A stretch of DNA of 64,000 nt from Camelus ferus (Eukaryota). The translations under genes were made by a program, and so were the position numbers. Every line of letters starts with the position of its first letter. Position 1 is the first letter of the stretch. This document shows, piece after piece, positions 2,344 through 34,819 of this stretch. The stretch spans positions 51,028,001-51,092,000 of the forward strand of contig NC_045696.1 in NCBI RefSeq assembly GCF_009834535.1. Direction: 5' to 3'. The notes under the pieces were generated by a model. It had not been told where the DNA came from. It made no database searches and saw nothing but the letters and a program-made list of their open reading frames with translations.

Positions 2344-5300
2344 TCTTGTTGAAAGTGGAAGCAAATCTTTTCTTCACAGTAACACAGCTGCAGCATTTTG
2401 AGCAACACTGTCTGGTCCCTTTCTTCTTGGAAGATCAACAGTTCAACTCCCTGTAAAGGTTAACCAATATAGTCAAGTCCAGTGCCTCAGTGACCTCACA
2501 GATGAAAAATGGTTCTAAGACTTAGGGGATGAGGGAGCAGAGATCCAGAAAAGTGAAGAGAGGATTTACATGGAGTAAACTTTTAGTTCCTATGACATAG
2601 TTTGGTGTATAGTTGTACACACAAATGGGCCAAAAAAAAAAATTAATGATCTTTAAAAAAAGTGTTAAATTACAAATGAAGAATTATCTTCTATGTCTCA
2701 TGAAATCTCTAGTGACAGATTTTGCAGTCATCCAAAATAACACCAATTTGGATATTATCCCCAATGTTTTCAACCGGAGTTGGCTGATGTTTTGAAGCAT
2801 CTGAACACATGCGTGTGCCAGACAAAGATTACAGTTGATGGGGTTTGTGCAAATCTAGAAATAAGGATGTTGAATGACCACCACATTCAAGCTCTGAGTT
2901 TAAAAGGAGTTTTGCTTCTAACTAGTAAGATTTTTACAAGATCGGCATCAAGGATGGCTCAGAGAACGTAAGGCAACAGTGAGAAAAATCAGCTGTACTT
3001 GGCGTCGAGGTGTTGGATTACACTGAGCACGTGCCATCCTGGCTGGCCCGTTGCTCTTAACAGGGGAGTGGGTGAGCAGTGCGTTCCAATGGCCAGCCTT
3101 AGGACCAGAGGCACGGCTGCGGGTAAAGTGCGGTCCCAGGGTAGAGGCAGGTGGGCGTTAGAAGCTCTGGGTCTGAGAAGGCCCTCAACACTTCTTACCT
3201 GCACACCCGGATTGCCTCCATCTACACTTGTCCCTCACAGACTCCAGCAGAAACACTCTTAAGTGCACAAAGGAAGTGTAGAATGCAGGGAGAATATGGT
3301 TAAGTGGAAAAGAAAAAAAAGACCTTTTTACGTTGAATTCTGGGGAAGGAGAAATGATATCACTCAGCCAAAAAGGTATCTGAGAAGCAACTAATTTCTG
3401 CCCTTTAATTTGCATACAGGTTTCATAACATTATCACTGAGTATTATTGCCCTCTGGAAGTACACAGCCATAGGTGATGATCTCCGGGCAAAGGCAGGAT
3501 TAACAGAGACAACAGAACAATGACTTCCAGGTTCCTAAGGATATCAACCCAAAGCCATCTGATTTTGGTACCACCTTTGCCTTTCTTTACTCCTCCATGG
3601 GATTGAAAAAAACAAGTTCTCCAAAACAAGGAACAGAACTATATGGCACATCAAATATTTTAAATCAACTTGAACTACTTCTGTTTTGAGAAATTCTTGT
3701 TACCCCTTAGTAGAGAAGGAGATGCAGTGGTTCCCAAAGCCAGGCACTGGGAGTCACTGATTTGGGAGCATGAGTCCCTTTCACACGCTGATCCTGTAGA
3801 TGCTGGACCCCACCCAATCAGTGTTTCAAGGCAGAGGCTAATCACCCTGCTAAGGAAATGACCACGGTCCCTGCCACCTGTTTGACATGGTGCAGATGGA
3901 AGAAAATAAGGGCCTGGGTATTTATGTATCAAAGGAAGGACAGAGCTAAGAGGAGGCGTATTAGTGAGTCTTTACACTTTCTCAAATTTTCAAAACTTTA
4001 CTCTCATTAAAATGTATTTCCACATTTTTTTGGAGTATAAATTTTAGCCTCTCCATAAAATAGCTCATGTCAGAAGGCAAGAGCAAGGCAAATGAATTAT
4101 CTTTAAAGTGTTTGAATAATTTTGTATTTTAAGAAGGCTGATTTTTAAAAGTTGATCCTCATTGCAGTTCACCCTGATATGTGACTGAAAATCGCTACAA
4201 AAGAACATTCCCTCCTCAATCTTCTCTGATACGTTACATTTTATAAAGCATGATTACTCTGGAATTCTCACTCCTTACTTAGAAGAAGGGTGCCAGCTCT
4301 GGTACACCCCAGAGATCTTATGATAAAAACAAAAATAAATTTCCTGAAGCAGTATAAAACATCCCAAAACGACCTATATGTACAAAAAAAAAAACAAAAC
4401 CAAAGTTGATTTCTTTTATCCGTAACTGACACATTTAAGTTTTTACATGATGAGAAATCTAAAATTATTCACGTCGTCAGAAGCTACTGTGTTAAATGTT
4501 TAGATGAACCAACTACTTTCTGAAGCTGATTCTGTATGACCAATAACAATATGAGAGAGAAAAATTATTTAATCAAGGACTCACTTATACATAAGTCTGT
4601 GTATTTCTAGAAATTACAAATTTATTTGTGAAAGTGGCTTTATATTCTATAGACATATATTAGTGAGGCATGAATAACATTAAATTTACTATAACCAAAA
4701 TTGACGATTTCTCTGCCATTCCTTCACCAAAAACTATAATCCAGAGATCACTAGATATTAAATAATAAATTTCCTTCCCCAAATCATGTAGCTCTAATTA
4801 TTAAAATACTTAATACTGCTGGTAAATCTCATACATTCATGCTTATAAATCAAATAAGATTACTGTGCTCTGAACACCTTCAGAATTTAATTTCTATATA
4901 AAATGGCCTCATATATGCACACGCCTATAAGATAATTAGAGCTACATGTAAGCAGGGGCCCTGTTACTTGCAGATGGTCACCTCTTTCCTCAGATGGTCA
5001 AATAAGCCTTACTTCGGGGTAGAGACTCGCTTGGAATGAAAGCCCTGAGGAATGTAAATGCTATCTCTAAACATTGCTGAGCAGAAAAATACAATTGATG
5101 CAACAGAGAATTGCCTGCAAGTACCAACCAGGCTTGAGGCTCTTCCACTGCAATGTTCAAATCGAGCTTCTCCTTACCTGTGACCTTAGTTTCAATTCCA
5201 ACAGTCCCTGGTTCTTCAGAACCTAACAGCCACTGTGCGGGGGGAGCGGGGCTGAGGGGGCGAGGTGGGAGGGCAGAGACAGAAAGAGCCATGAGAAAGG

Positions 5301-7310: not shown

Positions 7311-9615
7311 TTAAACAGCTGAACTGCAATCATGACCTAAAATATGGCTTATGTTGTGGGCAGGTCTGTTTGAGGACTGCTTGGAAGAGTCGGAGGCAGA
7401 GGAGTTTGCTATTGTAAGCAAAGGTGACATTGCTGAGCCATCGGGAAGAGCTGTAGCTATTTCTGGAAACAAAGATGTCATATTAAAATTGGATAAGTGA
7501 GAGTTGGTCATGTGCATTGGTGGCATATCAGGGAGAAGAGGAAAACTTGGTTGGGCAAAACCAACAGGTCTGGGAGGAGATAAAATGGATCCAAATCGGT
7601 TATTTAAAGTTCCACTGTTTACCTTCTCTGTGCTAGGATTTGAGAACATTTGATTAGAAAAGTAGGGGATGGAAATATCATTGGACAGTGTAGGGTGAGC
7701 AGGAGAGTATGGGGGATAGAAGGAAGGTAGAGTATTTTGGGGATCTACAGGGATAAGGGCTGGAGTCCGAGTGGCACTAGGCTGAGTAACCTGTGGAATG
7801 AAAGAAGTATTCGCGTTTATTGGTGGATTCATGCCACCCTCGGGAATAAAAGGAAAACCAAAATTTTGTGATAGTGTGTGCTGGTCAGGTGCTGAATTGT
7901 CATTCGGAACTTGTGGGCTATCAGGCATGAAACGAACAATACTTCCTCTCTTTTCTGCAGTGGGTTGCTGGCGTCCAAGAATCATACTGCCACTAGTAGA
8001 CAGAGGAAGGTGGGGAAGACTTGGATCAAAGACATTACTATGTCTTTGGTTTCCAGAGCGATTCCTTTCAGGCTGACGAATTTTGGAACCACTGCTGTCT
8101 TGCAAGGGATGTCTTGATCGCTGGGGAACTGAAGAATTAGTCTGACGTACGGGAGGCCCTTGGTCAGTGTTTCCATGAGACACAGACGGATGTGGCAGAG
8201 CTGGCCTTGCAACCCCATGCATGTTGCTTGTGACTGGAGGGTTCATGTGGCCCTTGGTCCCGTGACTGTCAGTAATCCTCATGGGATTGGACTTCTGCAC
8301 AGAAACATTGGGACTTGTATTTCGACCTTGAATATCTCCTGAAGAAGAAGAACTCGAAAAAGGAATATTCAAGGTGCTGTTCCTGGTGTTAATTGCCCCT
8401 AGGGACATGTCACAACTCTCCCGATTCTGACTCTCACCCTCTCTTCTAATATGGACACTTTCATGAGTTGGGGGACAATTATATTCAATTGCAGAAGGTG
8501 GGCCACACTGTGTATTCCTCTGATGTTCTGAGAGCGATCTCTGGCTCCCAATGACCTGATCACCAAGGTGAGGGGCAAGTAAACTCTGCATGAAACTCTG
8601 GTGACACGTATTTTCACTGTCCCTTGGTGGGATGGCATTTCCGGTCGGGATGCTCTGAACTGGTGGATAAGGTAATCTCTTTTGGCGGTCGATTGGTGGT
8701 GGACCAGGGTTCTGACTAATTCGAAAAGCCTGGGACTGCATACTCCTCAAGGAGGACACAGGGTTACCTATTTCATTATTTCTTGAAGACTGTACTTCAA
8801 AATTACTCTGAGGCTGCTGACTGGCTCCACTTGGTTTAAATGTCTGACAGTCAGAAAGGCGGATATCTGAGGCAACGGTATGGTCCACACGACCCTGCAT
8901 ATTATGAATGGCCAAACTCTTATTTCTGGGAACATCAAGGTAGCTTCTCATTTCAAGCTGATCGGAAACTCTGGAACCCTGAATCGATATACCCATTCTC
9001 TGCTCTGAATTAGAAGATGTCTTTCCAATGAGTGCCTCCGCAGAATAACTTGAAACTCTATTTCTCTCTGGCCTGTGTGGAGTACAGGTCATGTCGGAAG
9101 GCCTCGTCACAATACTTGGTTGGGAGACCATCTGCTGCTCTATGCCTCTTGATGTCAAAAGCCTCTGCATTGGATTATGCCCAGGTACATGTTCAGAAGA
9201 AACCCCTGAGCCTTGTGGCCGGCTTCCTACATCCTGCTGCTGGTGCATAATGTCTTGGTTGAGATGGTTCTGGGGATGGTTATGGTGGTTCCGGCTCGTT
9301 GAGGGGTTTTCACAACTCTTCTCGGGCTGGGAGCTCCCGAAGTGCTGCTGCATCTGCTGCTGCATCTGCTGATGGTGGGGGTGAGGCTGACCACTCTTGG
9401 GTCGGGACTGGTCATTTCCGTGGTGCTTGGGTTGTAAAGCAAGCTGAGAGGTCTGAGTGCCCTGAACAAGATTCCTCTTCTTCTGCATCTGAACTTCCTG
9501 TTGCAGAGTTCTCTGTTGGTGGATGCTGTGGGGCTGAGAGTGGACAGAGCTCTCTGCGTGAGGGACGTGATGCTGCAGTTGATATAAGTGATGCCTTTCT
9601 CTTAACTGCCCTGCT

Positions 9616-9646
<31 letters not shown>

Positions 9647-10977
9647 TTAAGTAGAGATGATTACTGTGCAGGTGAGGGACCCCTTGAGCTGGAACATGCT
9701 GTTGCAGGGCCTGCAGATGTTGGCTGGCCTGGGTTTGTTGCTGCTCAGCAACAGAAGGCTGAGAACTGCACTGAACCTCATTCTGCCTCAGTGCAGGGGC
9801 CACGAAGTTGTTACCGGGTGGAAATAATCGTGTAAGGCCATCTCCATGGGTGGGGTTGCTGATTGGCACAACAGAATTTGAAGAGTTGGGAGGGATCTGA
9901 CCAATCATCATTTGAGTTTGCTCGGAAATGCTGTCTGGAGTTCGGCTCATCAGGGACAGACCCTCAAGCCGGAGGGGGGCTGGTTGACAGTGCTTTTGAC
10001 GTTTGGCTGAAGACAGTAAGAGGTCATCTTGGACAGCACGCTTAGCAGAGTCTTTGCGGTTTTCATGACTTGGCTTTAAGAGGGACTCTTGAATCTGTGG
10101 ATTTGGTAGGGTACCAGCCATGGTATTTAGCTGTTCTTGGGAGTATTCGGTCATCAGAGACGGTCCGGGGGGCTGACTGCCATAGGAGCTAGATGAAACC
10201 GTCAGATTAACCGTGGCTGGAACAGTTGCTTGCTCTGAAGTTTGGGATAAACCAGCGCAGCTGACCAGAGGATGGTTGATGCTGCTCTGATGGATAAGAT
10301 TGTTCACACTTAAACTGGTGATGGTTGGTGGCTGAGAAGTGGAAACCTGTAAAGCAGCATTTGACGTTTTAATTCCTATAGAACAACTTGGTTTTTCAAG
10401 GGGCCTATCCACAGTTGCTTCGACCGAATCCTGAGAATGAAATTCATTTGGTGTTGCTTCTGCCTGTCCTGGGCCATTCTCTTTAGATATCTGTGTTTTG
10501 AAAGGCTGGTCTCCCTCTAAAGAGGATGCTTCAGAAGATTTTGAAGTAACTTCCCTTATATCAGCCTGGGTGCCAGCTCTTCCCTTCTCGAGGTTCTCCT
10601 GGTCAAAAATAGCCCTCGCTGCCAGAGCGACGATATCAGTTTGCTCCACAAAGGTGCAGCTGTCACACGTATTAGTCGTCGCATTGCTGGTGACATCCTC
10701 TCTAGTTGTCTCAGGAAGCATGGATGCAACTGAGAAACTACGACTACTGCCCGAGCTGGTCGACATGGGAGAGTCAGCCTGCCTACTGAGCAAAGAGCCA
10801 TTAATAACCTCCTGATCAGGGATGCAGGAATGATGCTGTCCTGGATCTCTGTCATCACTGTTCATCAGTAACAGCTCCTGTTTCGGATGTAAATCAACAT
10901 TTGAATCAACTATCTTAGAATTTCCTGAAGAAAAGTCAGGAGGGTCCACCTGGACTGAAAGAGATGATTTCTGAGGG
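7311..10977 (-). CDS. USF3: USF3 terminal exon, coding part downstream of the frameshift (PQKSSLSVQVDPPDF...DCSSAV stop), Q/H/S/P-rich with polyQ
   Basis: 1212-aa ORF 7311..10949, whose frame stays open back to the A-run at 10978-10983; TAA stop at 7311-7313. Confidence 0.93.
9615..9644 (-). repeat. USF3: Coding CAG/CAA repeat (CAG)6CAA(CAG)2CAA encoding Q10
   Basis: Read directly from the sequence; translates as YLK-Q10-AGQ. Confidence 0.9.
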
Positions 10978-13770
10978 TTTTTTCTTTAGCAAGACCAGAC
11001 AGCAATGCAGTTAAACCCTGCCCCTTTAAGAGACCTGTGGTTTGCACTGTATCTGATGGATCTTGCTCAGCCCTGCAAGGTTCAGCAATGACTTCTACCT
11101 CAGAAACACAGTCTGTACTTGAAGTGCTCGTGGTAGATGACAAATCAGAAACCTGAGAAACCAAAGCATGGGGATCAGTTGCAGGTGAAATCAACACGTT
11201 GGCGGAAGTGCAGGATTTGGCAGCATCTGGCAATGCCAAACCAATTGGTGGCTTATCCTGAGACATCTCTCGTTGCAAAATGGGGGAAGAATCTTTGGAT
11301 TTTGCTGGGGCTACTGCAAAATGTTCACTTGTCACGGATTCTTGGGAGGGCAAGCTAGACTCTTCTGCTGACTTAGATTTAGGTACAGACTCAGGTATCA
11401 CGGGTTCAGAGTTGAGAACATCCAAAGAATGTGAACCAGAAACACTTACACTATTTGCCTGGGACACAGTGACAGAGGGCAACACAACAGGGAGGCTGTC
11501 CAGCAGTCCATCATTACACGATGGCTCTGCTGAGCCTTCGGTGCTGGGGAGGTCTAACTTGCCCACATCTCTGACTGGATTCAGGGTGCAGGCTGACTTG
11601 TTAACAGCTAAGTGTTTCTTGCCACTTGGCTTCTTATTCAACCTTTTGGACTTCATGTTAGGCAAACAAGCCACAGTGTTCACTGAGGGAGTGGTCACTA
11701 GATTATAAGTACTGGGTAGTGTGGCTGAATTATCTGTTGTCATAGGAGGTGCTACAGTGGTTGTTAATGAAACACAGTTAGCCAGGGTGGTCTGACTATT
11801 TGCAGCAATCGGAGGATTCGCAGGCTGGCTAATAGACAATTGTACACAGCTTTGCCCAGCCATCTGTGATATACTTTGATTGAGGCTGGCCAAAGCGCCA
11901 AATGTATTCAGGGCAACATTGGTATTTGGATCTTCGCTGGTGGTGGGCTGAATAATTTGCATAGGGGTTTGACTTGTAGTTCCTGATGAAGACATCACAG
12001 GCTGCAAAGCAAAGAGCTGTCCATTTAAAGAAATGGTTTGAGGCTGTTGTGGTTGGTTTGACATGGTAACAGAGAAAGTTTGTGTTGAATTAGATGTTGA
12101 TAAAGATGAAGGTCTTGGTAATATGTGGACAAGATGTTTACCTCCAAAAGTTTGTGGAGTCGAAACATTTTGCACTGAATTATTAGACCCTATTATCGCA
12201 TTGGCTCCATTGACAGGGAGTCGAACAGAACCAGGGGGTGGAGCCGAGAGGAGTGGCAAAGGATTCTGATTAGCTGCCTGTATGATCACTATCTGCTGAC
12301 CTACTGTTTGGTTGGGAACCTCTGCCCTCATCATTGTTGGGCACGGGGTGGTGCTGGGTGGCTGAAGAATGATCACGTTTGGATTAGCTGGGGCTGCATT
12401 CACAGCCGACCCCACTGGCTGAGCCATCTGAATCACTTGCATTGCTGAATTCAATGGAAGGATATTTTTTGGAGGCTGAGATTTAACTTGTGGCTGGGCA
12501 ATCAGTGGCTGCATAGGTAAGGATGGACAAGAAGGCAAGGTTACAACTACTTGCTCAACTGGCTGCACATCTGCTAGAAAGGAAGTATTCAGGTTGATGC
12601 CTGGAGCCACCTGTCTACTGTGGTTGGCTGTGGTGAGGCTGGTACCAGACTCACTTAATACTGGAGTCACAGCAGAAGACGGTGTCTGGCTTAAGGGCTG
12701 AATAGTGTTTCCTGCCAATTGCAAAGTAGTCCATGTCGTCTGCGTGTTTCCAGCTGAGGAAATTCGGGTAAGGCTATTCATGTTTTTTAAATCTGAAGCA
12801 CTAACAGCTGAAGAAGGCAAAGAACAAGAAAGGGTCCAACCATTGTCTATTGGGTTTGCAGAAAGGGAGCTGACAGGAGTGGTGGTCTTCCCTCCTCCAG
12901 GGGCAGATGAGGCCACCACGGCGGTAACACTTGTCAAGTCTGCACCCTTGCTCGTGCTCACTGGACAAGAGTCACTCACAGATCTGGGAGGCTGGGAGCA
13001 GATCGTGGTGGTAACAGAAACAACAAAAGTGGTTTGAAAATCACTTCTGAAATCCTGTGTGCTTGAGCAGGACTTGCTTCCAGAGTGCACTTTAGTGGCA
13101 GTTGCTGAGGGGATGGAGATGCTTGTGGCACAAGGGACTGTTTTCTTCAATAATTTGGGGCTCTCGTGCCCGTTCTTATTTTCAGAAGAATTTTGATCAT
13201 TTAGACATGGGTGCAGGGAACGATGCTGCGGAGGTTCAGGCCCAACGGGAACAGCGATCAGTGAGCCACTGGTGGCACTGAGCATACTCGATTCGCTTTC
13301 GGAGGTGGAAAGCTCGAGAATATTTTGAGCAGAAATGGTAGCAGGAAGACAAAGGGGAACAGGCTGGTTGGCAGCCAATGCAGAAACTGTAGTCTGCTGC
13401 CATGGCTTGTTTTCGGGAGGGTAAACTCCAGAAATAGACACTGGAGTCACAAGATTGCAAGTCCTCTGCACTGGCACCACGTTGGCAGTCTGCTTTTGTA
13501 AATTATGACCAACATTAAAGGTTATCCCTTGAACAGCTGTTCCCTGGCTGTTTCCACCAGGCTGACTCCCATTGGAATAAACAATGATATTTTTTTGAAC
13601 CTGGTCACTGGGAATAACAACAGAGACCTTTGAGTTTTTAAGATTTCCTTTCCAGTGGATGGTAGGGTCATCATATAAACATATGTCGTTTGCTTTTAGT
13701 AATTCAATGTATCGGCCGTTTTCCTTTTGAATTTCTTCCAGTTGTTTACGTAGCTTTTTAATTTCTTCAG
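10978..13770 (-). CDS. USF3: USF3 terminal exon, coding part upstream of the frameshift (AEEIKKLRKQLEEIQKEN...LSGLAKEK)
   Basis: Acceptor ttttcgatactgtag|ctgaagaaatt at 13770; zipper-like segment followed by the 856-aa ORF 10910..13480 (S/T/P/Q-rich). Confidence 0.93.
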
Positions 13771-14814
13771 CTACAGTATCGAAAATAAAAATGAAAAAAA
13801 TTATCTCTAAATGTCAGTATTTACAATAATTTAAGAAAGCGTTTGTATAGCAAGCTACTGAATCTAATCTTAGCATTTGAAATACCTCAGTTGAGAACCT
13901 TCAGCTCTTTTCTAATACAAGTTCTTTCTTCTTCTTAGAATGGTACCTCAAACCTCTATCCCAGTCCTTTTAAAAGTATATATATATATATATATCTTTA
14001 AAGGTCAACAAGGCAAAGGTCAAAAGTTACTCATAATGTAGAAATCTCAATAATCCCAAATTCAAAAATTCCCAAGTGGGCAGCTACCAAGGTGATGCAA
14101 GGAAAGACATATGGATATCATGGTAAGATGCTGGGAAAATAACACTATCAATATAATAGCATTTAAATGCTGCAACAGCCTACATTACTTATGATGGTAA
14201 TAGTCTCTTTTATAAATGGCTTTAAACTAGTTTCTATTTTACCCTTTGAAATAACAGAGACCAAGTAGAACACATAAGAAGTAGGGAGGTAGAGCACTGA
14301 AGAAAGCAAAAACAGTGAAACTTGCATTTTCCTTGGCAGGGCCAGTGTATGCAGACTACTGAATAGTGAAGATGTCTGTGACACCCTACACCCTTCCAAG
14401 GGGCAGCATCACCCAAAGGTCCTACTAAGAGTCAGCCCTGGCAGCTGGTATTTATGTTCTGTGACCCACACACCCCCACCTGCCTTGTCACAGTGGTAGG
14501 TACTCCCCCCTCCGCCCCCTGCCCCTGCCAAAGCCAGCCAATCCTCAAGGCCAATCCCCTATAAGGTAACCTGATACAAAAAGTTCTGTTCTAACAAGGA
14601 TGAGTTGAGACTAGCAGATTATTTTTTTCAGATATTTAAACTGAGAGACACAGAAGAAAGAGGCCCATGTGCCATGGACATTAGAAATTAAAGGACAATT
14701 ATAATGGACCAAATAATAATGATGATTGTTCTCGCTTACTGCACACTTACTCTACACCTGGCACTTTTCATTCATTGTCTCATTTAATGACGATGATGAC
14801 AACAAGGACAAGAA

Positions 14815-15135: not shown

Positions 15136-16385
15136 AGACCGTCGCGTGGACAGGGAGTATGTGGAGGGAGCTGCTGGGAGAAGAGAGAGCGCGTGCATGG
15201 AAAAGAACTAAGGAAAGAACGATGCCGGAGACGATGACACACTCGGACTTAAGCTGCCTCAGGTGCCACCCTAACCCCTGGCCTGGCTGTTCAGCTTTCC
15301 CTGAGCCTCCTGCAACCTGTATTTTTTCAGGTTTCCCTTTTCTCTAAGATCAGTTGATTGCCTCAGACTCTGGGCTGTGAAACAAAGGAGCCCTCATTAG
15401 AAAAGTCTGTACATCACTCTAGCTTTAGCATCCCTTTGGTGGGTACCTCAAAACGGTGACCAAACACTCACTATATATCTAACTGCCTGGCAGCATCATA
15501 AAACAGGGCCTGGGTCATAAAAGACAGCTGACCGCGGGGAGCAGGTAAGTTGTTATCCAACTAGAAGTAAACGAGAATTTGGAATGCCGAGCTTCTGGAT
15601 CTGCTTTCCAATATCCTCACTTCTTTTACAGTGCACACAGCCCAGCACTGCCCCCACCTCCGCAAATCCTGCCTTTGTTTCGCTCCTTGTAAGGTGACCT
15701 ACTGACTCGTCACAGGCATTTCTCTTTGCTCTCGTCAGAGACATAAATAAAAGACAGTTCAAACTGGCTTCCTACTTGAAGTTTCATGCTTGCCTGGGGT
15801 ATTTTTCTTTTCTGCTGTTATAAGGAAACTTCTCCAGTGCAAGTGGGAAAACAGAACTCACCTGACAGCGTAAGAAAGTCACCTCTAAAAATCAAGTATC
15901 ATTAAATGATCAGGCAGTCTGACATACACATTACATGCAATATAAACAACTGTGAACTCAATGTTTTGGCCTTCTGAGTTAATTCACAGTTACGTCTTGG
16001 TGCAGGCATATGTTTATCTGTGTTTAAGTTACACTGAGCAGGAGTCTTCCTACATCCTCTTGTGGGATTCCCCTAGCTGGAAGAGCCAAATAGAATAAAG
16101 GAGATTCAGTATTATTTGTACCATGAGTTAAGTAAACTGGAAGCACAGGAAGAGTATAAAATCAAAATTATTTATGCCTACAAGATTAGAGTCGCTCAAA
16201 GAGGGAAAGAGGTAAACTGGGATGAATTTATTTGCAGCACTATTCTCACAGACACACTGAATGCATGGTCTTAATAATGGTTTTGGGTAAAAAAAAAACC
16301 CTTCCGTACGCTAATATAAGTCGCATTGTGACACAAAGGCCTGAACACTGAAAAAACAACAAAGTAAGAATCTTAACATCTTTAC

Positions 16386-16482
16386 CTTGTTCATTGTTTC
16401 CTCCGTTAAGCAGGAGTTCATCATTTTGCCTTTTCAACTCTGTTATATATTTAAAGGCTTGGTCCAGGATCATATTCTTGCT
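16386..16482 (-). CDS. USF3: USF3 97-nt coding exon (SKNMILDQAFKYITELKRQNDELLLNGGNNEQ), helix 2
   Basis: Minus strand tctttggcag|agcaagaatatg...aatgaacaag|gtaaag; lies within ORF 16246..16503; KxxIL..A..YI..L bHLH helix-2 pattern. Confidence 0.95.
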
Positions 16483-16850
16483 CTGCCAAAGAAAATCGAC
16501 CATTTAAAGGTTTCACTGAGGGGTAAGAACTCGCCAGAAGAAAGTTACAGCTTTGGCTTTATCACATGTATGTGATATGTATCTTTTCAGAATCTAAAAC
16601 TGGCACAATATTCAAATGCTTCTACTGCTCATCTTTCATTTATGAAGTGTTTATTGAGGCTCTGTTCTAAGCACTGGGGATGTAATAAAAAGGGGGACAA
16701 AGTTCCTGACCTTGAGGAATGTTATTTTATTTCTGAGGAATTATTATATATTTCATATACATTTATATAAAAATCAGGTAGTGATAAGTGTTATGAAGAA
16801 AAATACAGTAGGGTAAGGAGGGGGCCAGAGAGATGGCAGAGGCTACTCTG

Positions 16851-17187
16851 TGCTATGGACTGAATGTTTGTGTCCCCCTACAATTCATGGTGCAACCCCA
16901 ATCCTGAAGTGATGGCATCTGAAGATGGGGTCTTTGGGAGGGAATTAGGTCATGAGGGTAGATCCCTCGTGAATGAGATCCCTGCCCTTAAAAGAAAAGA
17001 CATGAGAGAGGTGACCACTCTCTCTGTGATGTGAGTTCACAACCAGGAAGAAAGCCCACACTAGGAACCGAACCAGCTGGCACCTTGATCTTACACTTCC
17101 CAGCCTCCAGACCTGTGAGAAATAAATTTCTGTTGTTGAAGCCACCCAGTCTATGGTAATTTTCTTATAGCAACCCAAACTAAGACA
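16851..17187 (+). mobile_element. MLT1A-like MaLR solo LTR
   Basis: tgctatggactgaatgtttgtgtcccc...cagcctccagacctgtgagaaataaa...actaagaca; TG..CA ends; near-identical 5-bp flanks ctctg/ttctg. Confidence 0.88.
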
Positions 17188-17930
17188 TTCTGCTATAATC
17201 TATTTTGCATAGGGAGGCTGGGGAAGGCCTCCCTGTAAGGTGATATTTGAGCAAAAACCTGAAGGGAGTACCAGGAGGTACACCCTGTGGATATCTGGAA
17301 GAGGAGGGCTCAGGCAGCAGGATGAGCAAGGGCACAGTCCCCCAGGTGGGGCTGAGCCTGGCCTGTCAGAGAAATAGAAAGGAGGTGAGCGGTCTAGAGC
17401 AAAGTGCAGAGGGGAAGAGCGGTAGGAGAGAGGCCAGAGAGGGCCATCAAGAGCATGAAGAGAGTTTAGATTCAGTGTTATTCTTCATTCTGTCAACTAC
17501 AATCACAAACTATTCTAAACAATAGGTTGAGATAATGTCACTTGATTGAGTTTGTCATCATGCTCCCAGTACATTCTATTCCTAATCTTTTCCAAAGACT
17601 ATATTTTATGTCAAAGTTCCGTTACTCTTTAAACTTTTAAAATTGATAACATAATATATGCATATGTCAAAAAAATATAAATAATATGAAGGGATATAAA
17701 ACGAAAAGTACGTTCCTTTTGACTTTAGCCCTCCAGACCCCTTTCCAGAGTCAATGTCCATAAAGTTACTTGTGTATCCTTCCAGAAATCTATGCCAATA
17801 CATGCATATACATGTGTGTGTATATATATGTATATAACTTTTAAAAAATCTTTTTTAAAAACCCAGATAGAAGGATACTATTAACAGTATGTTACATTAT
17901 TTTGTTCTAATTAAAAAATATATACCTTGG

Positions 17931-20900
17931 ATAGAATGGTCATTTTAATAATGTTAATTCTTTGAATCCTTGAGCATGATATATCTTTTCATCCATTTGT
18001 GTCATCTATGATTTCTTTCATCAACGTCTTAGTTTTCCAAGTACAGGTTTTTTACCTCGTTAGTCAGCTTTAGTCCTAGGTATTTTAATCTTTCTGATAT
18101 AACTGTAAATGGAATTGTTTTCTTAATTTCTTTTTCAGATAGTTTGCTGTTAGTGTGTAGAAATGTAACAGACTTCTGTATTAATTTTGTATCTTACAAC
18201 TTTATTAAATTCATTAACACATTGATCACCTACTATGGATCGGGTGCCCAGAGGAAACACAACTGTTACCCAGATTTGGTGATGTGATGATCAATGTGTT
18301 AATGAATTCTAGTAGTTTTCTGGCGGCATCGTTAGGATTTTCTATGTCTAATATCATGTCATTTGCAAACAGTGACAGTTTTACTTCTTCCTTTCCAATT
18401 TGGATTCCTTTTATTTGTGCTTCTTATCTGATTTCTGTTGCTAGGACTGTCAATACTATGTTGAATAGAAGTGGCAAGAGTGGACATCTTGTTAAAGGAC
18501 ATGTTTTCAGCTTTTTACCATTGAGTATGATACTAGCTGGGACTTGTCATTCATGGCCTTTATTATATTGAGGTATATTTTCTCTACACCTCCTCTGTTG
18601 AGAGTTTTTATCATAAATGAATGCTGAATTTTGTCAAAAGTTTTTTCTGCATCTACTGAGATGATTGGATTATTTTTATTCTTCAATTTGTTAATCTGCT
18701 GTAACACATTGACTGCTTTGTAGATACTGAACCATCCTTGCATCCCAGGGATAAGTCCCTCCTGATCATTGTTTATGATCCTTTTAATATACTGTTGAAT
18801 TTGATTTGCTAATATTTTGTTGAGGATTTTTGCATCTATGTTAATCATATTAGTCTGTGATTTTTATGGTCATGGATTAGAAGGATTAATATTGTTAAAA
18901 TGACCATATTACTCAAGATACTCTACAGATTCAATGCAATCCCTATGAAAATGCCAATGGTATTTTTCACAGAACTAGTACAAATAATTTCAATATTTGC
19001 ATGGAAACACAGAAGATCCAAAGTAGCCAAAATAATCTTGAGAAAGAAGAACAAAGCTGGAGGTATCATGCTACTTAATTTCAAAGTATCCTACAAAGTT
19101 ACAGTCAACAAAACAGTATGGTACCGACACAAAAACAGACAGACAGAGCAATGAAACAGAATAGAGAGCTTAGAAATAACTCCATGTGCTGATGGTCAAT
19201 CAATCTATGACAAAGGAGGCATAATATACAATAGGGAAAAGACAACTTCTTCAATAAGTGGTGCTGGGGAAATGGACAGCTACATGTAAAAGAATGAAAT
19301 TAGAACATTTTCTCACACCATATACAAAAATAAACTCAAAATGGATTAGAGATCTAAATGTAAGACCAGAAACCATAAAAATCCTAGAAGAAAACATAGA
19401 TAGAACATTCTTTGATATAAATCATAGTAATATTTCTTTGGATCTTCTCCTCAGGCAAGGGAAACAATAGCAAAAATAATCAGAAGGGACTACATCAAAC
19501 TAAAAAGCTTTTGCACAGTGAAAAAAACTATCAACAAAACAAAAAGGCCGCCCACTCAATGGGAGAAGATATTTGCAAGTGATATATCAAATAAGGAGTT
19601 AATATCCAAAATATACAGAGAACTCATACAACTCAATGTTAAAAAAACAAACAATCCAATTAAAAAATGGGCAGAGAACTTGAATAGATATTTTTCCAAA
19701 GAGAACATGCAGATGGCCAACAGGCACATGAAGAGATGCTGGACATCATTATTACCAGGGAAATGTAAATCAAAACCACAATGAGGTATCACCTCTCACC
19801 TATCAGAATGGCTATAATGAAGACAACGACAAATAACAAGTGTTGGCAAAGAGGTGAAGAAAAGAGAAACCCTGTGCACTGTTGGTGAAATTTTAAATTG
19901 GTGTAGCCACTATGGAAAACAGTATGGAGATTCCTCAAAAAATTAAAAATAGAATGACGATATGATTCAACAATTCCACTCTTGGGTATTTATCGGAAGA
20001 AAACAAAAACGCTAATTTCAGAAGATATATGCACCCCTGTTCACTGCAGCATTATTTACAATAGCCAAGGTATGGAAGTAACCTAAGTGCCCATCAACAG
20101 ATGAATGGATAAAGATGATGTGGTATATAAATATACACAGTTGTAAAAATTTTGCTACTTGTGACAACATGGATGGATCTAGAGGGTATTATACTAAGGT
20201 ATTATACTAGAGGGTATTATACTTATTATACTGAAATAAGTCAGACAAGAAAGTCAAATACTATATGAAGTCACTTATATGTAGCATCTGAAAAAACAAA
20301 ACAAATAAACAAGCATAACCAAACAGAAACAGAGTCATAGATACAGAGAACAAACAGGTGACTCCCAGAGGGGAAGTGGGTAGGAAGGGAAGAGAAATAA
20401 GTGAGGGAGATTAATAGGTATAACCACCAATTACAAAATAGATAAGTTATGGATATGGAATGTACAGTGTAGGGAATACAGTCAATAATTATGTAATATC
20501 TTTGTATGGTGACTGATGGTAACTAGCCTTATCACATTTATCATTTTGAAACAGACAGAAATATCAAATCATTATGTTGTGCACCAGGAACTAACATAGT
20601 TTGTCTGTCAATTATATTTCAAAAGCAAGCCAACAAACAAACTTACAGAAAAAGAGATCAGATTTGTTGTTACTAGGGACAGGGAGAGGAGGAGGGGAAA
20701 CTGGATGAAGGTGGTCAAAAGATACAAACTTCCATTTGTAAGATAAATAAATACTAGCAATGTAACATATAACATGATTAATATAATTAACACTACTGAA
20801 CATTATATACAAATGTTAAGAGAGTAAATCCTAAGAGTTCTCATCACAAGGAAAAAAATTCTTTTTCTATTTCTTTAATGTTATATCTACATGAGTTGAT

Positions 20901-21032
20901 AGATGTTCACTAAACTTATTGTGGTCATCACTTCATGATGTATTAAGTCAAATCTTTATGCTATATACCTTACACTTATACAATGCTGTATGTCAGTTAT
21001 ATCTCAATAGAGCTGGAAGAAAAAAATAGAAG
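17931..21032 (+). mobile_element. 5'-truncated, 5'-inverted LINE-1: antisense ORF2 piece 17931-~18855, sense ORF2 3' part and 3'UTR ~18868-21030
   Basis: ORF2-like peptides on the minus strand ([25 protein letters not shown]) and plus strand ([37 protein letters not shown]); flanked by degenerate TSD TTAAAAAATATATA..CTTGG at 17911-17930 and ~21033-21055. Confidence 0.92.
18218..18298. mobile_element. 81-bp piggyBac-like MITE inserted in the L1
   Basis: TTAA at 18214-18217 and 18299-18302; terminal inverted repeats CACATTGATCA...TGATCAATGTG; removing the element and one TTAA restores contiguous L1 sequence. Confidence 0.75.
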
Positions 21033-23046
21033 TTAAAAAAATATATATATCTTGGAGATACTTTCATATAGCATTTAAATAACTTTATCTATGCTATATT
21101 TTCTAAAGGTGTGTCTATTTTATTTACAAGTTTATTACTGATAAATATTTAAGCTGTGAAAGAGAAATTTCAGTTTTTTATTCTTCAGTTATGTTGCAGT
21201 AAATGTTTAAGTTCTACTCCAGTATGTATATTATTAAATATCTCCAGTATTTGATCAATAGTTGTCTTCATGTAGGAGTCAGTGATTTAGGGCTTTGGTT
21301 CAGCAAGTTACAATTTTGGGTTCCTTAGGCTGAGTCCCAGTAGAAAACCAGTATAACCCAGAAAACACTTTACTTCAGACAAAAGAAACTAAGATAATGT
21401 CCTTTCTTAGAGCAAAAGCTGAGACAAAGGTAGAATCTGATAATGCCCACCTACTGCTTCTCTGTTGCAGATGGAGGTGGGGACATGTAGCAATGATGAA
21501 GAAAATTTTAATCTACTCAGCTTCTGGGAACCAGAGACTGACTTCCATTGCACACTCTAGGACATCAGAAAAAAGAAATAATTATGGTTTCCTTTCAGAG
21601 AAACTTGTAGGGAGTAAAAGCCAAGAGGAGGAATAGTTTACTGGGCAAACACCAATACCTACTGAGCAGCTACTCCACATTGAGATATGGAGAAAGAAAA
21701 ACAATCAGAAGACAGAGTGCCTGTCCTTAAGTTTGCTTTTGTGTTAAGGAAACCGAAAGTCCATTTTAAAGAAGACTAAACACATTTATGTAATATTAGG
21801 TACCACCTTGCAGGGGAGAATGACAAGAAATTAAAGTGTAAGACCTTGCTGAGAGAAACAGTGTTGAGAAGTGAACAAATTCTGGCCCTCCCCTCTGAAA
21901 GCCTGGGAAAGTTGAGGATTGTGAAGCTTCAAATGCCACAGAAGGTGGGGGGAGGTATGGGGTTAAACTAGAAGGGACTGGTAGAAAGACTCTTCCTTTG
22001 CAGTAATAAGAACTGATCCCCTACATAAGCGTCCTATACATCTGGACGACTTCCCCTTCCTCCCCAACCGCAGGAGACAAGTTTATTTTCTGTGAAATTT
22101 GAACCAAGGCCTCAAGGACAGTTACTTGGCAGAGAAGTGGACAAGATGAGACTTGGACAAGATGAGGTTCCAAAGTGAATGGGTAGGGGGGGGGTGGGGG
22201 AGGGTGGGGTATAAAGAAAACTCTGCTTCCTAAAGCACAAGACTATAGCACCCTTTCCCCAACCCAGCTCCCAGAATAATGGCAACTAGCCTTACACTCC
22301 TCTTCCAACCATTCTCATTCCTAGGCAGGAGGCTGAAGAAATCCTCTCTGGAAAATAAAAATTAATAGCTATCCCCCCAAAAAGAAAATCTACAATACTG
22401 ATATTTTTCAGTTCAACAACAATAACACTAGCTCACCAGCTAATCACTAAACAGGGGCACCAAAAAACAAGCCTGTTCAATCAGCTTTTTAATGCCTCAT
22501 TCTCAAATATGAAAAAAACAGTTAATTATCACTAAACATTTAAGGAACATCTCCAAAAAGAAAGACAAAACATCAGAACAGAGGGGGAAGAAAGGAAATC
22601 AAAAGAAACAAAGACAATATAGAAAATAGAAGAAAAAATTTTAAAAAGCAAAATGCTGTGTAATATTCTCAAAGATGAAATGATATTATATCTACAAAAC
22701 AAACGTGGTAAGAAAAGGAACAAAGAGAATAAGAAAAAAAGACTTAGAAATTAAAAACATGAGAGCTGAAATTAAAAACAGAAGAGTTGGAAGAGACTAA
22801 CTAATTGAGATTGAAAAAGAAGGGTAGAGAGTTCTAGAAGTAAAGTCTCAAAGGAAAAACAGGAAAAATGGAGATTATGTGGCAAATTTGACCATGTAGA
22901 AAACTGTACTAAGAGACTCTTGGAAATGTGAAAAGAATTAAAGATAGATATATAGAAAATTGAGAAAATGAAAAACACTGAAGCAATTATTAACTTCAAA
23001 AAACCAAAAGTAACATATAAAATGAAACATAATAATAGCACATTGT

Positions 23047-23158
23047 GGGGAGAGTATAGCTCAACAGTTAGAGTGCATGCTTAGCATGCACGAGGCCCTG
23101 GGTTCACTCCCCAGTACCTCTATTTAATAAACAAACAAAACCTAATTATCCCCCCCAA
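23047..23158 (+). mobile_element. tRNA-derived SINE, camelid Vic-1-like
   Basis: ggggagagtatagctcaac..agagtgcatgcttagcatgcacgaggccctgggttcactccccagtacctc with A/B boxes and an acctaattatccccccc tail. Confidence 0.85.
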
Positions 23159-24332
23159 GATAAAAATAGTAGATTACTTGGGTCAGCTGTAAACAATATT
23201 TATACAGTCTTGACAACACGAAAACTGAATACTGATTTAATCTAAAGTGATACAATTATATTAGAAGGATTAGGCAAGGAGAAGCCAAGGGAAAAGCATA
23301 ATAAAAAGTCAAAAGATAATATGTAAAATGGAGAAAAGATTTAAGCATGTTATTTTGAAACATAAAGGTAAATACTAGAAGGAACATTTGAGAACGGGCA
23401 CCTCCAAGGGGCTATATTAGAGTTGGGAAGCAGGTAGGTAGGAAACTATTTGCTATTTTTAGCTTTTTAGTGCTATTTGCTATGTGTATATATTAATTTT
23501 TGCATATATTACTTTAATTAACAATTAACCAAAAAAGGCTAACACAAATTATGATATCTTATTTTTAATGGAATATCATATAACCATTGGAAAGGAAGGC
23601 GATCATATGCCATATGTATCATATCATATCTACAAGCAAAATGTGTCCCACTGAGTGAAAATGAAAAGCAGGTTATAAAACAGCACTGGGTGTGTATGAA
23701 GATATATTTATAAAGCAACGTCTGGGGAGATGTGTAACAAGATTTTAATAGTGGTTATAACTTGGGAGTAGGATGTCTACTTTTTAAACTTTTTTATGCT
23801 TTCCATATTGTTTTATTCTGTTTTCAGTGAGCATGCTTTATCATCATTATCAGAAGAACCAAAGAGTTATTTCATTAGGGAGAACTGTTAGCCTTAATAA
23901 ACTGAGATATAAGTACCAGTGAAGGTTGACAGGGCGTGGGGAATAAAATAGGAGGAGATCCTTAAAAGAGTCTAGGTAAGAACTTAAGGAGAGTAAAGAA
24001 CATGACTGGCAGAAAATAAATTAAATCCCTGGTACATACAGTGGCAAATACATAAATATAATCACAGGACTGATTAATTCAAGACCTTAATGATCTAGAA
24101 ATTATATGGTCCATTTGATCGTGTAGAAGACTGTACCAGAAGACTGTTGGAGGTGTGGGAAGAATTAAAGACAGGTATACGGAAAATTAAGCAAAAGAAA
24201 ACCAATGAGGTAATTATTAACTCCAAAAAACCATTAGTGGCATGGAACAAAAATAATCACTCCGAGCATAGAAACAACTTAGGAAATTATCTGTTCACAA
24301 GTAATGAATGAAAGTAAGAGTGGATCTCTTAC

Positions 24333-30904: not shown

Positions 30905-33085
30905 TTTTTCTCCTTGAGGTAAAGCTTCCATGTAAGTAAAATGCACAAATTTTAGTGTAACATTCAATGGGTTTTGACAAATGCATACACCTGTGTGACC
31001 TAACCCCTATCAAGGTACAGGATGCTATTATCATCAGAGAAGTTCTTTGACAACCCTTTCCAACCAATCCCTTCCCCTGTTCTCACAGAGGCAGCCAGTA
31101 TTCTCTCCACCAGAGAACTTTATAATGTACTAATTGAGAATTCTACTGCGTCGAGCTTTTTATTCAGCATGTTTTTGAAATTCATGTTGTAGTTGGTTCT
31201 TTTTTTACTTCTGAGTATGAATAACTGTGTGTGAGTTTAAAACACAGTTTATTTATTTTTCTGTTGATGGATACCTGGACTGTTTCCATGTTTTGGTTAC
31301 TATGAGTAAAGCTGCTACCGAAGAACTTTGTTGTATACAAACAATAAATGCTGGAAAGGGTGTGGAGAAAAGGGAACCCTCCTACACTGTTGGAGGGAAT
31401 GTAGTTTGGTGCAGCCACTATGGAGGACAGTATGGAGGTTCCTTAAAAAACTAAAAATAGAGTTCCCGTATGTTCCAGCAATCCCTTTCCTGGGCATATA
31501 TCTGGAGAAAACTCCAAATCGAAAAGACACACATACCCCAATGTTTATAGCAGCACAATTTACAGTAGGCAAGACAAGGAAGCAACCCAAATGTCTATGG
31601 ACAGATGATTGGATAAAGAAGTTGTGGTGTACAGATACAATGGAATACTACTCAGCCATAAAAAGGAGTGAAATAATGTCATTGGCAGCAACATGGATGG
31701 ACATAGAGATGATCGTATTAAGTGAAGTAAGTCAGACAGAGAAAGACAAATATCATGTGATTTCACTTATATGTGGAATCTAAAAAAATGAGACAAATGA
31801 ACTTATTTATAATACAGAAACAGACTCACAGACACAGAAAATGAACTTAGTAACCAAAGGGGAAGGGGGGGGAAGGGATAAATTAGGAATTTGGGATTAT
31901 CAGATACAAACTACTATATATAAAATAGATAAACAACAAAGTCTAATGATATAGCACAGGGAACTATATATTCAAAGGCTTGTAGTAACCTGTAATAAAA
32001 GAGTGTGTGAAAAAGAATACATATATATGTATGATTGAATCACTATGCTGTACAACAGAAACTAACACAACATTGTAAATCAACTAGACTTCAATTAAAA
32101 AAAAAAAGAACGTTGTTGTTTAAGTCTTTTTTGTGGATATAGTCTTTCATTTCTCTCAGGTAAATACCTAGGAGTGGAACTGCTTATCAACTGCAGTTTC
32201 ACTGCAAGGTATTGATCCAAGAGAAATGAAAAACTGTATCTACAAAAAGACTTATGTAAAGAACATTTATCACACTTTCCTGAGAGTGATAGTGCCATTT
32301 TGCACTTCCATCCACAATGGTGGAAGAGTTCTGGTTGCTGCACAGCCTCACCAACACTGGGCTTTTCCTGTCTATTAATTTTAGCCATGCTGGTCGGTAT
32401 ATAGTGGTATTCCATTATAGTTTAATTTGCACTTCCTGGATGACTGATAATACTGAATGCTTTTTTACGTGCATAATAAACCATTTGTAGAACTTCTTTT
32501 ATCTACTCATTTCTTTTACCAGCTTTTTAATTGGCTTGTATACCTTTTTATTATTAATTTATAGGAAGTCTTTATATATTCTGAGTTATTTATATCTTCT
32601 GGATACTTGTCCTTTGAAATATATTTTAAAATACTCTGTCCCATTATGTAGCTTGTCTATGCATTCTCTCAATTGTGTCTTTTGGTGAACAAAATTTCTT
32701 GATGAAGTATAACATCAATTTTTCTTATCAAATTTTTCTTCTATGATCATTTCTTTTTGTATCTCGTCCAAAATACCCTTACCAATCCTCAAGATATTCT
32801 CCCATCATTGCTTCTAGAAGATTTATAATTATAAATTAATTAATCATTATATTTAGGTCAATGATCCATATTATTTATGGCATGAGGAAGGGGTCAAAGT
32901 TCTTTTTTTCACCCATATGGACATTTAGTTGTTTCAACACCATTTGTTGAAAAGATGTCCTTTCTTCAGTGATATTTTTGTTAAAAATCAAATATCCATA
33001 TAAGTGCAATTCCATTTCTAGGCTCTCTATTCTATTGCTCTCTATTCCAATCTGTCCTTACAGTATTGCCACACAGTCTTGATTA
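30905..33085 (-). mobile_element. Old L1M-type LINE-1 fragment (antisense), host of the younger L1
   Basis: Antisense L1 3'UTR/ORF2 motifs (ggtaaatacctaggagtggaact, tttcaacaccatttgttgaaaaga) continue on both sides of the insertion. Confidence 0.8.
31335..32105 (+). mobile_element. 5'-truncated younger LINE-1 (ORF2 C-terminus, 3'UTR, poly-A) inserted in an older antisense L1
   Basis: ORF 31328..31783 ([36 protein letters not shown], the ORF2 Cys-rich end); A tail; TSD AAGAAC(T/G)TTGTTGT at 31321-31334 and 32106-32119. Confidence 0.93.
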
Positions 33086-33093
33086 AGCATGTG

Positions 33094-33203
33094 TTTATTT
33101 ATTTTATTTTTTATTTTTCCCTTAATGGAGGCACGGAGGATTGAACCCAGGACCTTGTGCATGCCAAGTAAGCACTCTACCACTAAGCTATACTTCCACC
33201 CCC
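33094..33203 (-). mobile_element. tRNA-derived SINE, Vic-1-like
   Basis: Reverse complement of the same family (gattgaacccaggacc...actctaccactaagctatac). Confidence 0.85.
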
Positions 33204-33811: not shown

Positions 33812-34026
33812 AGAATGGAAAAAATTAGTAAAAAGATGAATTAAAAGACTGGTTAATGCATGTCAACTTCCTGGTTTTGGTACTGTCCTACAGTTATAAA
33901 AGATGCCACCTTTGGGGGAAGCTGGGTGAAGAACTCATGGACTCTATACTGTGTATCTCCTTTTGAGTCTGTAATTATTTTAAAATAAAAAGGTTTTAAA
34001 AGTGAATTTAAAAATTGGTAACTGCT

Positions 34027-34155
34027 GGGGAGAGGGTATAGCCCAGTGGTAGAGTGCATGCCTACCATGCATGAGGTCCTGGGTTCAATCTCCAGTATCT
34101 CCACCAAAAATATAAATAAATAAACCTAATTACCTCCCCCTTAAAAAAAAAAAAG
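34027..34155 (+). mobile_element. tRNA-derived SINE, Vic-1-like
   Basis: gggtatagcccagtggtagagtgcatgcc...ggtcctgggttcaatctccagt...aaacctaattacctccccc followed by an A tail. Confidence 0.88.
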
Positions 34156-34819
34156 AAGAACTTCATTCCTTTTTATTAAAAAAAAATTGATAAGTGCTAC
34201 CTTAGAGATTTATTAATAAATAAACAGGTAAGAACAGAGCATCAAGCATGTTTCTTGTGGGACCCAAAGAAAACTAGGTCTTGGAGACTGTATACAGGAT
34301 TTTGCCAGGTGGAGACGGACAGGGAAAATGATAGGAAGTAGAAGGAACAGCAGTTGCAAGAGCAGTGAAGTAAGAGCAGTCTGAGGACTGCACCAGGACT
34401 ACACAAAACACGGGAGGGAGGGAAAGAGACAGGAGGGGAGGGCAGGAAAGGAACTTGGCCCAGACTACAAAGGAATTTTCTGTGCCTAACACATTCATTG
34501 TATTCAGATTTTATCTTAAGATCAGTGGGTCTCAAATAGCAATCCACAGAAACTAGCATTGGTCTGAAGTAAAATGAAGCCCGCTGGTCCACAGTAAAAT
34601 GAAAAAAAGGACAATGCCAGATAGGATACTTACTTTTTTATTGACATACAACTTACATACAATAAGTCACTAACTTAAGTTCATTGCTCCATGCATTTTT
34701 ATATATGAATACTCCCATGCAACCGCCACTCAGATCAAGATACAGAATATTACCAGCATCTGAAAAGGCTCTTTCGAGGTCCCTGCCACTGAATCCCTTG
34801 AAGTTTCTTTTAAAAATAT

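What the first reader, a model, noticed from the sequence alone, without database searches (positions are those of the whole stretch)
18208..18308. 81-bp piggyBac-type MITE (TTAA duplication, CACATTGATCA termini) nested in an L1: possible unrecognised DNA-transposon activity in this lineage
Seen: TTAA-CACATTGATCACCTACTATGGATCGGGTGCCCAGAGGAAACACAACTGTTACCCAGATTTGGTGATGTGATGATCAATGTG-TTAA, with 11-bp perfect TIRs (13 bp with one mismatch) and loosely matching subterminal motifs (GATCGGGT and AATCTGGGT). Deleting the element and one TTAA rejoins the L1 (aaattcaTTAAtgaattctagtagttttctgg). Known: TTAA target duplication is diagnostic of the piggyBac superfamily, and as I recall, Myotis bat piggyBacs start with CAC. 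Known: mammalian piggyBac activity is documented mainly in bats and primates. Inference: this element jumped after its host L1, which is well enough preserved to keep ORF2 stretches and a TSD, so a piggyBac transposase was active comparatively late in this apparently camelid lineage, possibly after horizontal transfer.
Basis: partly seen in the sequence, partly recalled or inferred. Interest (0 to 1): 0.75.

Follow-up and report, generated by a model that had tools for sequence, protein, structure and literature searches.

The report
Hairpin insertion mimicking a piggyBac MITE
An 85-base insertion with perfect inverted ends really does interrupt an old L1 retrotransposon, but this single copy fits a DNA-repair scar at a palindrome at least as well as a piggyBac mini-transposon, and no second copy was found.

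Summary
The sequence facts hold. An 81-bp segment (18218-18298) has perfect 11-bp inverted ends and TTAA on both sides, and it interrupts L1 ORF2 just after the RT motif (83-nt register excess against human ORF2p).

The piggyBac reading is possible but unproven. TTAA is self-complementary, so any inverted copy mimics its duplication; duplications of 0, 2 or 4 bp fit equally well. The perfect stem runs 6 bp past TTAA (0 of 547 other TTAA sites do) and forces Phe at ORF2 residue 721 (0 of 49 homologs). The arms resemble the host L1 in two places and end in a palindromic hexamer (each about 1-2% by chance, post hoc). The subterminal motifs are chance-level.

For the MITE: the start fits the piggyBac motif, and the 59-bp core has no source in the window.

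No relative was found in the window, in the viral, metagenome, prokaryote, phage or plasmid collections, or in this scan's earlier findings. No camelid genome was available, so copy number, the decisive test, is unmeasured.

Odds: repair or template-switch scar 0.5, piggyBac MITE 0.35, other TIR element 0.1. Horizontal transfer is unsupported.

The parts
18218..18298 (.). 81-bp candidate element under the TTAA parse (83 bp under a TA parse, 85 bp if blunt)
18214..18217 (.). left TTAA (apparent target duplication; self-complementary)
18299..18302 (.). right TTAA
18208..18228 (+). left arm of the 21-bp perfect inverted repeat: 6 bp of L1, TTAA, 11-bp apparent TIR. On the minus strand 18228-18220 also fits L1 ORF2 codons Leu-Ile-Asn-Glu (721-724)
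18288..18308 (+). right arm of the 21-bp perfect inverted repeat; holds the Phe codon (minus strand 18306-18304) at ORF2 position 721, seen in 0 of 49 homologs
18229..18287 (.). 59-bp core with no source found in the window (element 46% GC, host L1 33%)
18223..18228 (.). self-complementary hexamer TGATCA ending the left arm; repeated directly at 18288-18293, so the core is also bracketed by a 6-bp direct repeat
18232..18246 (+). weak resemblance to the tip of the piggyBat right end (13 of 16 aligned; p = 0.012, picked by eye, 1 of 2 tips tested)
18683..18712 (.). small native hairpin of the same L1; 18702-18712 is the only other exact copy in the window of the 11-mer spanning the TTAA/TIR junction
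17914..18851 (-). host L1, inverted 5' part (ORF2 about residues 528-819 of homolog P0017, RT domain)
18870..21040 (+). host L1, direct 3' part (ORF2 about residue 799 to end, 3' UTR); the two parts give a twin-priming-type 5' inversion
17909..17931 (+). left copy of the L1's eroded target duplication; partner at 21030-21056 (22 matches, 1 mismatch, 4 gap positions)

Best explanation
A one-off, probably neutral scar of DNA repair or template switching at a palindrome-prone spot of a dead L1, which happens to look like a piggyBac MITE. Step 1 (shown): an L1 inserted with a 5' inversion and decayed. Step 2 (shown for the protein, inferred for the DNA): its codons 720-725 (majority E-L-I-N-E-F) form a natural near-palindrome. 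Step 3 (inferred): a stalled or broken end folded back and copied this sequence, plus about 8 extra bases possibly templated from the L1's hairpin at 18683-18712, giving a 36-bp perfect palindrome. Step 4 (inferred): the palindrome broke at its centre and a 59-bp fragment from elsewhere was patched in, leaving the central hexamer on both sides. On this reading the 'TIRs' are L1-derived fold-back arms, and the two TTAAs are one self-complementary word and its inverted copy.
For: The perfect stem extends 6 bp beyond TTAA. Of 547 other TTAA sites in the window, 0 do so and 8 match at 5 of 6. The MITE parse needs Phe721, found in 0 of 49 ORF2 homologs that span the site (36 Leu, 9 Ile; 49 of 120 hits examined), and that codon is what perfects the outer stem. 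Nine of the 11 TIR bases fit the host's own L-I-N-E codons, which restores the majority peptide without a substitution (about 1% of random 11-mers fit). An 11-mer of the arm recurs exactly once elsewhere in 64 kb, 400 bp away in the same L1 (p 0.004-0.017 within 0.5-1 kb), at a codon where this copy has Leu and 100 of 107 homologs have Ile. The inner 6 bases of the arms are self-complementary (1.7-1.9% by chance), so core plus one hexamer sit at the centre of a 36-bp palindrome. Two other complex perfect inverted repeats of 17-18 bp without outer duplication lie in the window. Template switching perfects and creates inverted repeats in mammals (PMC5453318, passages). Snap-back end joining gives inverted-repeat and multi-round insertions (PMC2943611, passages).
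Against: It needs two or three steps at one spot, where the MITE reading needs one. The 59-bp core has no template in the window (97 of 100 shuffles score as well; local and whole-L1 tests p 0.2-0.8). The four-point model does not cover foreign DNA, and the templates scored in PMC2943611 lay within 20 bp, not 400. The start fits the piggyBac motif (7% by chance), and an inner stretch weakly resembles the piggyBat right tip (p = 0.012). The supporting coincidences were found post hoc among about ten tests and are not independent of each other. Arm homogenisation after a true MITE insertion (PMC8604942, abstract only) could also explain the Phe codon.
Confidence: 0.5

Rival explanations
1. A non-autonomous piggyBac MITE. 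A transposase supplied in trans cut an 81-bp element with 11-13-bp TIRs and pasted it into a TTAA of the L1, duplicating it; the outer 6 bp were perfected by chance or by later arm homogenisation.
For: One event explains the 85-nt excess. TTAA on both sides; the first six bases fit C[CAT][CAT][TGA][TAG][TGA] (PMC5381638 passage; 7% by chance). piggyBat ends start with CAC. The core is foreign and richer in GC and weakly resembles the piggyBat right tip. A 90-bp bat piggyBac MITE is listed (npiggyBac-1_EF). PMC8605555 Table 8 lists 4 piggyBac-classified MITE families per camelid genome (sequences not seen).
Against: No second copy: window; 0 of 124 viral and metagenome terminus matches with a partner end at 2 or fewer mismatches or a similar core; 0 paired-end matches in viral contigs; 4 prokaryote matches, none TTAA-flanked. 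None of these collections is a camelid genome, so this is weak. The subterminal repeats are chance-level. It needs a target at the centre of a near-palindrome (8 of 547 sites) plus Leu-to-Phe, plus the TIR's likeness to the host L1 as coincidences. Of the 221 bat elements screened in PMC10162687, the 16 with eutherian matches outside bats hit lemurs, tenrecs, tree shrews and Eulipotyphla, although four camelid assemblies were in the panel.
Confidence: 0.35
2. A miniature element of another TIR superfamily: Tc1/mariner-type with a TA duplication (83 bp, ends starting ACAC), or Chapaev/CMC-type with CAC...GTG ends and a 4-bp duplication that is TTAA only at this site.
For: The TA parse is formally as good as the TTAA parse. 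CAC...GTG ends with 3-4-bp duplications are the stated hallmarks of Chapaev, with a mammalian case in tenrec (PMC4079192 passages).
Against: The Chapaev3 pattern (A-TWA duplication-T) is not met: the 3-bp flanks differ left and right. Ends starting ACAC and only 12 bp long are atypical of Tc1/mariner (recalled). It has the same lack of a second copy and the same palindrome coincidences.
Confidence: 0.1
3. A functional or nascent RNA hairpin (miRNA-like) in an intron, or a RAG/Transib-type insertion.
For: The 101-nt region folds as one long stem on both strands (z about -5.5 to -5.9). CAC-led heptamers resemble recombination signals (recalled).
Against: The fold comes from the arms alone (core p = 0.49). 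The best Rfam match is 27.6 bits against a gathering score of 85. Nonamer positions match at 1-4 of 9.
Confidence: 0.03

Closest known systems
Mammalian non-autonomous piggyBacs (npiggy1-3_Mm of mouse lemur, PMC2997546; bat npiggy/npiggyBac families, PMC10162687; piggyBat ends, PMC11707139)
   Same: TTAA on both sides, short perfect TIR starting CAC, no coding capacity, size near the smallest listed family (90 bp).
   Different: Those are defined by hundreds to thousands of copies and by empty orthologous sites; here there is one copy. The TIR shares only 3-4 terminal bases with piggyBat. There are no significant subterminal repeats, and the stem runs into host sequence.
Template-switch and snap-back repair insertions (four-point model, PMC5453318; SD-MMEJ, PMC2943611; arm homogenisation, PMC8604942)
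   Same: Perfect inverted arms that include host flanks, a pre-existing near-palindrome, clustered changes that perfect it, and arm sequence matching nearby DNA.
   Different: The 59-bp spacer is not a local inversion or copy, so a captured distant fragment must be added; the suggested second template lies 400 bp away.
Chapaev (CMC) transposons (PMC4079192)
   Same: CAC...GTG termini, 3-4-bp duplication.
   Different: The Chapaev3 TWA pattern is not met; no transposase or family seen.

Membership tests
piggyBac MITE | TTAA target-site duplication | tested here: inconclusive
   TTAA is on both sides, but 0-, 2- and 4-bp duplications all fit and an inverted copy gives the same picture.
piggyBac MITE | Short TIR starting C[CAT][CAT][TGA][TAG][TGA] | tested here: met
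   11-bp perfect TIR fits the motif of PMC5381638; 7% of random 11-mers fit. It is 1 bp under the 12-19 bp range quoted there, unless counted as 13 with a mismatch.
piggyBac MITE | Subterminal inverted or direct repeats (present in 94 of 157 elements in PMC5381638, not obligatory) | tested here: not met
   Core left half against reverse complement of right half, p = 0.73.
piggyBac MITE | Multiple dispersed copies with the same ends and different flanks | tested here: inconclusive
   None in the window or in the collections scanned, but no camelid genome was held and no read-depth result was obtained.
piggyBac MITE | Autonomous partner with a DDD transposase and the same termini | not testable with these tools
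   No eukaryote assemblies are searchable; 0 of 124 terminus matches had a partner end at 2 or fewer mismatches within the DNA held.
piggyBac MITE | Empty site with a single TTAA | tested here: inconclusive
   The register against ORF2p shows a clean insertion, but the rejoined site needs Phe721 (0 of 49 homologs). No orthologous empty allele was seen.
Chapaev3 | TWA duplication between A and T | tested here: not met
   The 3-bp flanks are not a direct repeat.
Chapaev (4-bp duplication) | CAC...GTG termini with a 4-bp duplication | tested here: met
   Formally met; cannot be told from piggyBac with one copy.
Template-switch / repair scar | Perfect arms that include host sequence at a pre-existing near-palindrome | tested here: met
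   21-bp arms, 6 bp beyond TTAA, derived Phe codon.
Template-switch / repair scar | Inserted bases templated from local sequence | tested here: inconclusive
   The arms partly match the host L1; the 59-bp core does not.
Template-switch / repair scar | Single copy in the genome | not testable with these tools
   No genome held.

The most novel reading that the evidence does not exclude
The element is one copy of an uncatalogued 81-bp piggyBac MITE family, mobilised in the camelid lineage within roughly the last 40 million years by a horizontally acquired transposase related to the bat elements. The intact arms favour a young age if they were not homogenised: with the camelid rate of about 1.29e-9 per site per year, 15 pairs stay intact with probability 0.37 at 25 My, 0.20 at 40 My and 0.08 at 64 My. 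It would be a piggyBac invasion of a herbivorous artiodactyl, a group reported to have about 20-fold less recent DNA-transposon accumulation than cetaceans.
Probability: 0.2. Interest if true: 0.6.

Novelty: new member of a known kind. Interest (0 to 1): 0.25.

Why it matters
If it is a repair scar, it matters only as a caution: a self-complementary target word inside a fold-back makes a convincing false 'TSD plus TIR', so single-copy MITE calls at palindromes are unsafe. If it is a family, it would add camelids to the short list of mammals with lineage-specific piggyBac activity and give presence/absence markers and a lead to a new mammal-active transposase. One BLAST search against a camel or alpaca assembly separates the two.

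Tried and rejected
No second copy in the window: 6 matches to the 15-bp end at up to 3 mismatches, 4.7 expected, two being the element itself; BLAST best 15 bp, E 0.87. Plasmids and phages: no match. Viral contigs: 5 single-end matches without a partner, 0 paired. Prokaryote genomes: 4 paired matches, chance. Rfam: nothing at gathering score over the element. Core as an inverted copy of the neighbouring RT motif: suggestive by eye, but p 0.28-0.69 for DNA and 0.19-0.20 for protein; rejected. Whole element against the host L1: p 0.68-0.83. Core as a coding fragment: no Pfam hit for 3 of 6 frames tested, no PDB hit for 1 frame. Recombination-signal spacing: no. L1 paralog DNA from viral contigs, sought to check codon usage at the site: none. 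Sequencing runs: 20 of 23 listed rows hold 0.81-0.94 of the words of 16200-19000, under two organism labels. This shows the locus is real in many samples, but the element is too small a share of the words to score. I recalled that a second bat piggyBac family starts with the same seven bases; searches did not verify it, so it carries no weight here.

Full report
Observation. The 81 bp at 18218-18298 are as described: TTAA on both sides and 11 perfect terminal pairs, 12 of 13 with one mismatch. The perfect inverted repeat is in fact 21 bp, 18208-18228 with 18288-18308, because six further bases outside each TTAA also pair. The longest perfect arm in 40 block-shuffled windows was 14 bp, so this is not chance. 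The 'subterminal motifs' are chance-level: p = 0.73 for the core halves and p = 0.49 for the core's RNA fold.

The insertion is real. The flanks encode L1 ORF2 on the minus strand. Human ORF2p residues 682-720 map to 18423-18307 (E 2e-9) and 737-763 to 18175 onward (weak, E 0.27-0.49). Sixteen codons occupy 131 nt, an excess of 83 nt; I read this as 85 inserted and 2 lost nearby (the loss is inferred). The stretch 16200-19000 is held at 0.81-0.94 of its words by 20 of 23 listed runs from 7 studies, under two organism labels, so the locus is not peculiar to one assembly. That call cannot score the element itself.

Setting. The host is a 5'-inverted L1 (minus part 17914-18851, plus part 18870 to about 21040) with an eroded target duplication. 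It is old: tblastn with homolog P0017 gives 11 frame pieces and 9 stops, and 105 of 144 residues equal the majority of the homologs (part of that gap is subfamily difference). Camelids change slowly, about 8% since the split from pig 64 My ago (PMC10162687 Table S3), so nesting in this L1 does not show late activity. The intact arms are the better clue: 21 pairs survive with probability 0.39 at 17 My, 0.11 at 40 My and 0.03 at 64 My, unless they were homogenised later. The camelid identity rests on a SINE type I recall (23040, 33124, 34026) and on this scan's notes, not on a tool. The site appears intronic, in a minus-strand gene with a giant exon at 7311-13813 that I recall as USF3; searches did not confirm the name.

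Why TTAA is not diagnostic here. TTAA is its own reverse complement, so an inverted copy of an arm that contains it looks like a direct duplication. Duplications of 0, 2 (TA) and 4 bp all fit the structure. CAC...GTG ends with 3-4-bp duplications are also the hallmark of Chapaev (PMC4079192, passages), though the Chapaev3 TWA pattern is not met.

For a piggyBac MITE. One event explains the insertion. The first six bases fit the TIR motif of PMC5381638 (passages), which 7% of random 11-mers do. piggyBat ends begin CAC (PMC11707139, passages and oligo supplement), and 18232-18246 resembles its right tip (p = 0.012, post hoc; left tip p = 0.11). The core is richer in GC than the host (element 46%, host 33%) and has no source in the window. 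A 90-bp bat family is a size precedent.

For a repair or template-switch scar. (1) The stem extends 6 bp beyond TTAA; 0 of 547 other TTAA sites do, and 8 match at 5 of 6. (2) The MITE parse puts Phe at ORF2 721. Of 120 homologs, 49 span the site; 36 have Leu, 9 Ile and none Phe. That codon is what perfects the outer stem. (3) Nine of the 11 TIR bases fit the L1's own Leu-Ile-Asn-Glu codons (about 1% by chance), which allows a parse that keeps the majority peptide. (4) An 11-mer spanning the TTAA/TIR junction recurs once in 64 kb, at 18702-18712 of the same L1 (p 0.004-0.017 within 0.5-1 kb, 0.03-0.04 within 3 kb), at a codon where this copy has Leu and 100 of 107 homologs have Ile. (5) The arms end inwards in a self-complementary hexamer (1.7-1.9% by chance), so the core with one hexamer sits at the centre of a 36-bp perfect palindrome. 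(6) Perfect arms of 17 and 18 bp without outer duplication occur at 4785-4948 and 39061-39230. Points 3-5 are post hoc, overlap, and came from about ten tests, several of them negative. Point 1 is the firmest. The weak spot of this reading is the foreign 59 bp: the four-point model (PMC5453318, passages) does not cover it, and the snap-back templates scored in PMC2943611 (passages) lay within 20 bp. Arm homogenisation (PMC8604942, abstract and outline) after a true transposition could also give point 2, though the target would still have to be one of about 1.5% of TTAA sites.

Relatives. None in the window, plasmids or phages, viral contigs, metagenomes (119 single-end matches, scan truncated; 0 of 124 examined with a close partner end or similar core) or prokaryote genomes (4 chance pairs). 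This scan's earlier notes hold no look-alike sequence and no mammalian case. These collections are not camelid genomes. No whole genome was held and no read-depth result was obtained, so copy number, empty alleles and presence in the second organism remain open.

What is in print. PMC8605555 (passages) lists 4 piggyBac-classified MITE families in each of four camelid genomes. Its supplements could not be read and may contain this sequence. PMC10162687 (passages and supplement searches; the file was cut when stored) dates 0.9-1.0% of camelid genomes as DNA transposons younger than 50 My and 0.06-0.07% as younger than 25 My; its bat elements matched no camelid in the passages seen. The Zoonomia preprint 10.1101/2022.12.28.522108 (passages; supplements not seen) reports little recent DNA-transposon gain in non-cetacean artiodactyls. 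PMC2997546 (parts 2-3 of 5; supplement unreadable) shows the standard of proof: 943-3780 copies and empty orthologs. PMC3342881 and PMC10813416 (passages; the latter's supplement) and the supplement of PMC4971623 gave no matching ends; the TIR supplement of PMC5381638 could not be read. Searches found no paper describing this element or a camelid piggyBac invasion. Dfam and Repbase were not searchable.

Verdict. A real insertion of uncertain origin. Repair or template-switch scar 0.5, piggyBac MITE 0.35, other TIR superfamily 0.1, RNA hairpin or other 0.05. These odds are my judgement from the coincidences above and a low prior for an unnoticed family in curated genomes. An uncatalogued, camelid-lineage piggyBac family has about 0.2 probability and would merit 0.6. 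Overall interest 0.25.

Noticed in passing
window 4785-4948: Perfect 17-bp inverted repeat around a 130-bp spacer, no outer duplication, just downstream of the giant exon's gene end region; looks like a template-switch product.
   Followed up: partly
window 39061-39230: Perfect 18-bp arms around a TA/CA-rich inverted microsatellite region, with a further low-complexity 22-bp inverted repeat at 39132-39207.
   Followed up: partly
window 32121-32254: 78% self-inverted stretch that looks like two L1 3' pieces head to head (identification recalled).
   Followed up: no
window 17914-18870: The inverted and direct parts of the host L1 overlap by about 20 ORF2 codons (799-819 of P0017), a duplication at the inversion junction.
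   Followed up: partly
window 7311-13813 (minus) and 50100-50600: Giant coding exon (open frames of 967 and 1224 residues that overlap at 10910-10985, so a frame change or assembly slip may lie there) and a CpG-rich promoter; recalled as USF3/KIAA2018, not confirmed.
   Followed up: partly
window 18683-18712: Small native hairpin in the L1 (11-bp arms, 10 pairs, 8-bp loop) improved by a copy-specific Ile-to-Leu change.
   Followed up: yes
window 23040-23170, 33124-33197, 34026-34159: tRNA-derived SINE copies (two score as tRNA in Rfam); recalled as the camelid SINE type.
   Followed up: no
L125:1001-1084 and L128:1001-1072: Bacterial stretches built from short GATCA-rich repeats that matched the paired-end pattern by chance.
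   Followed up: no
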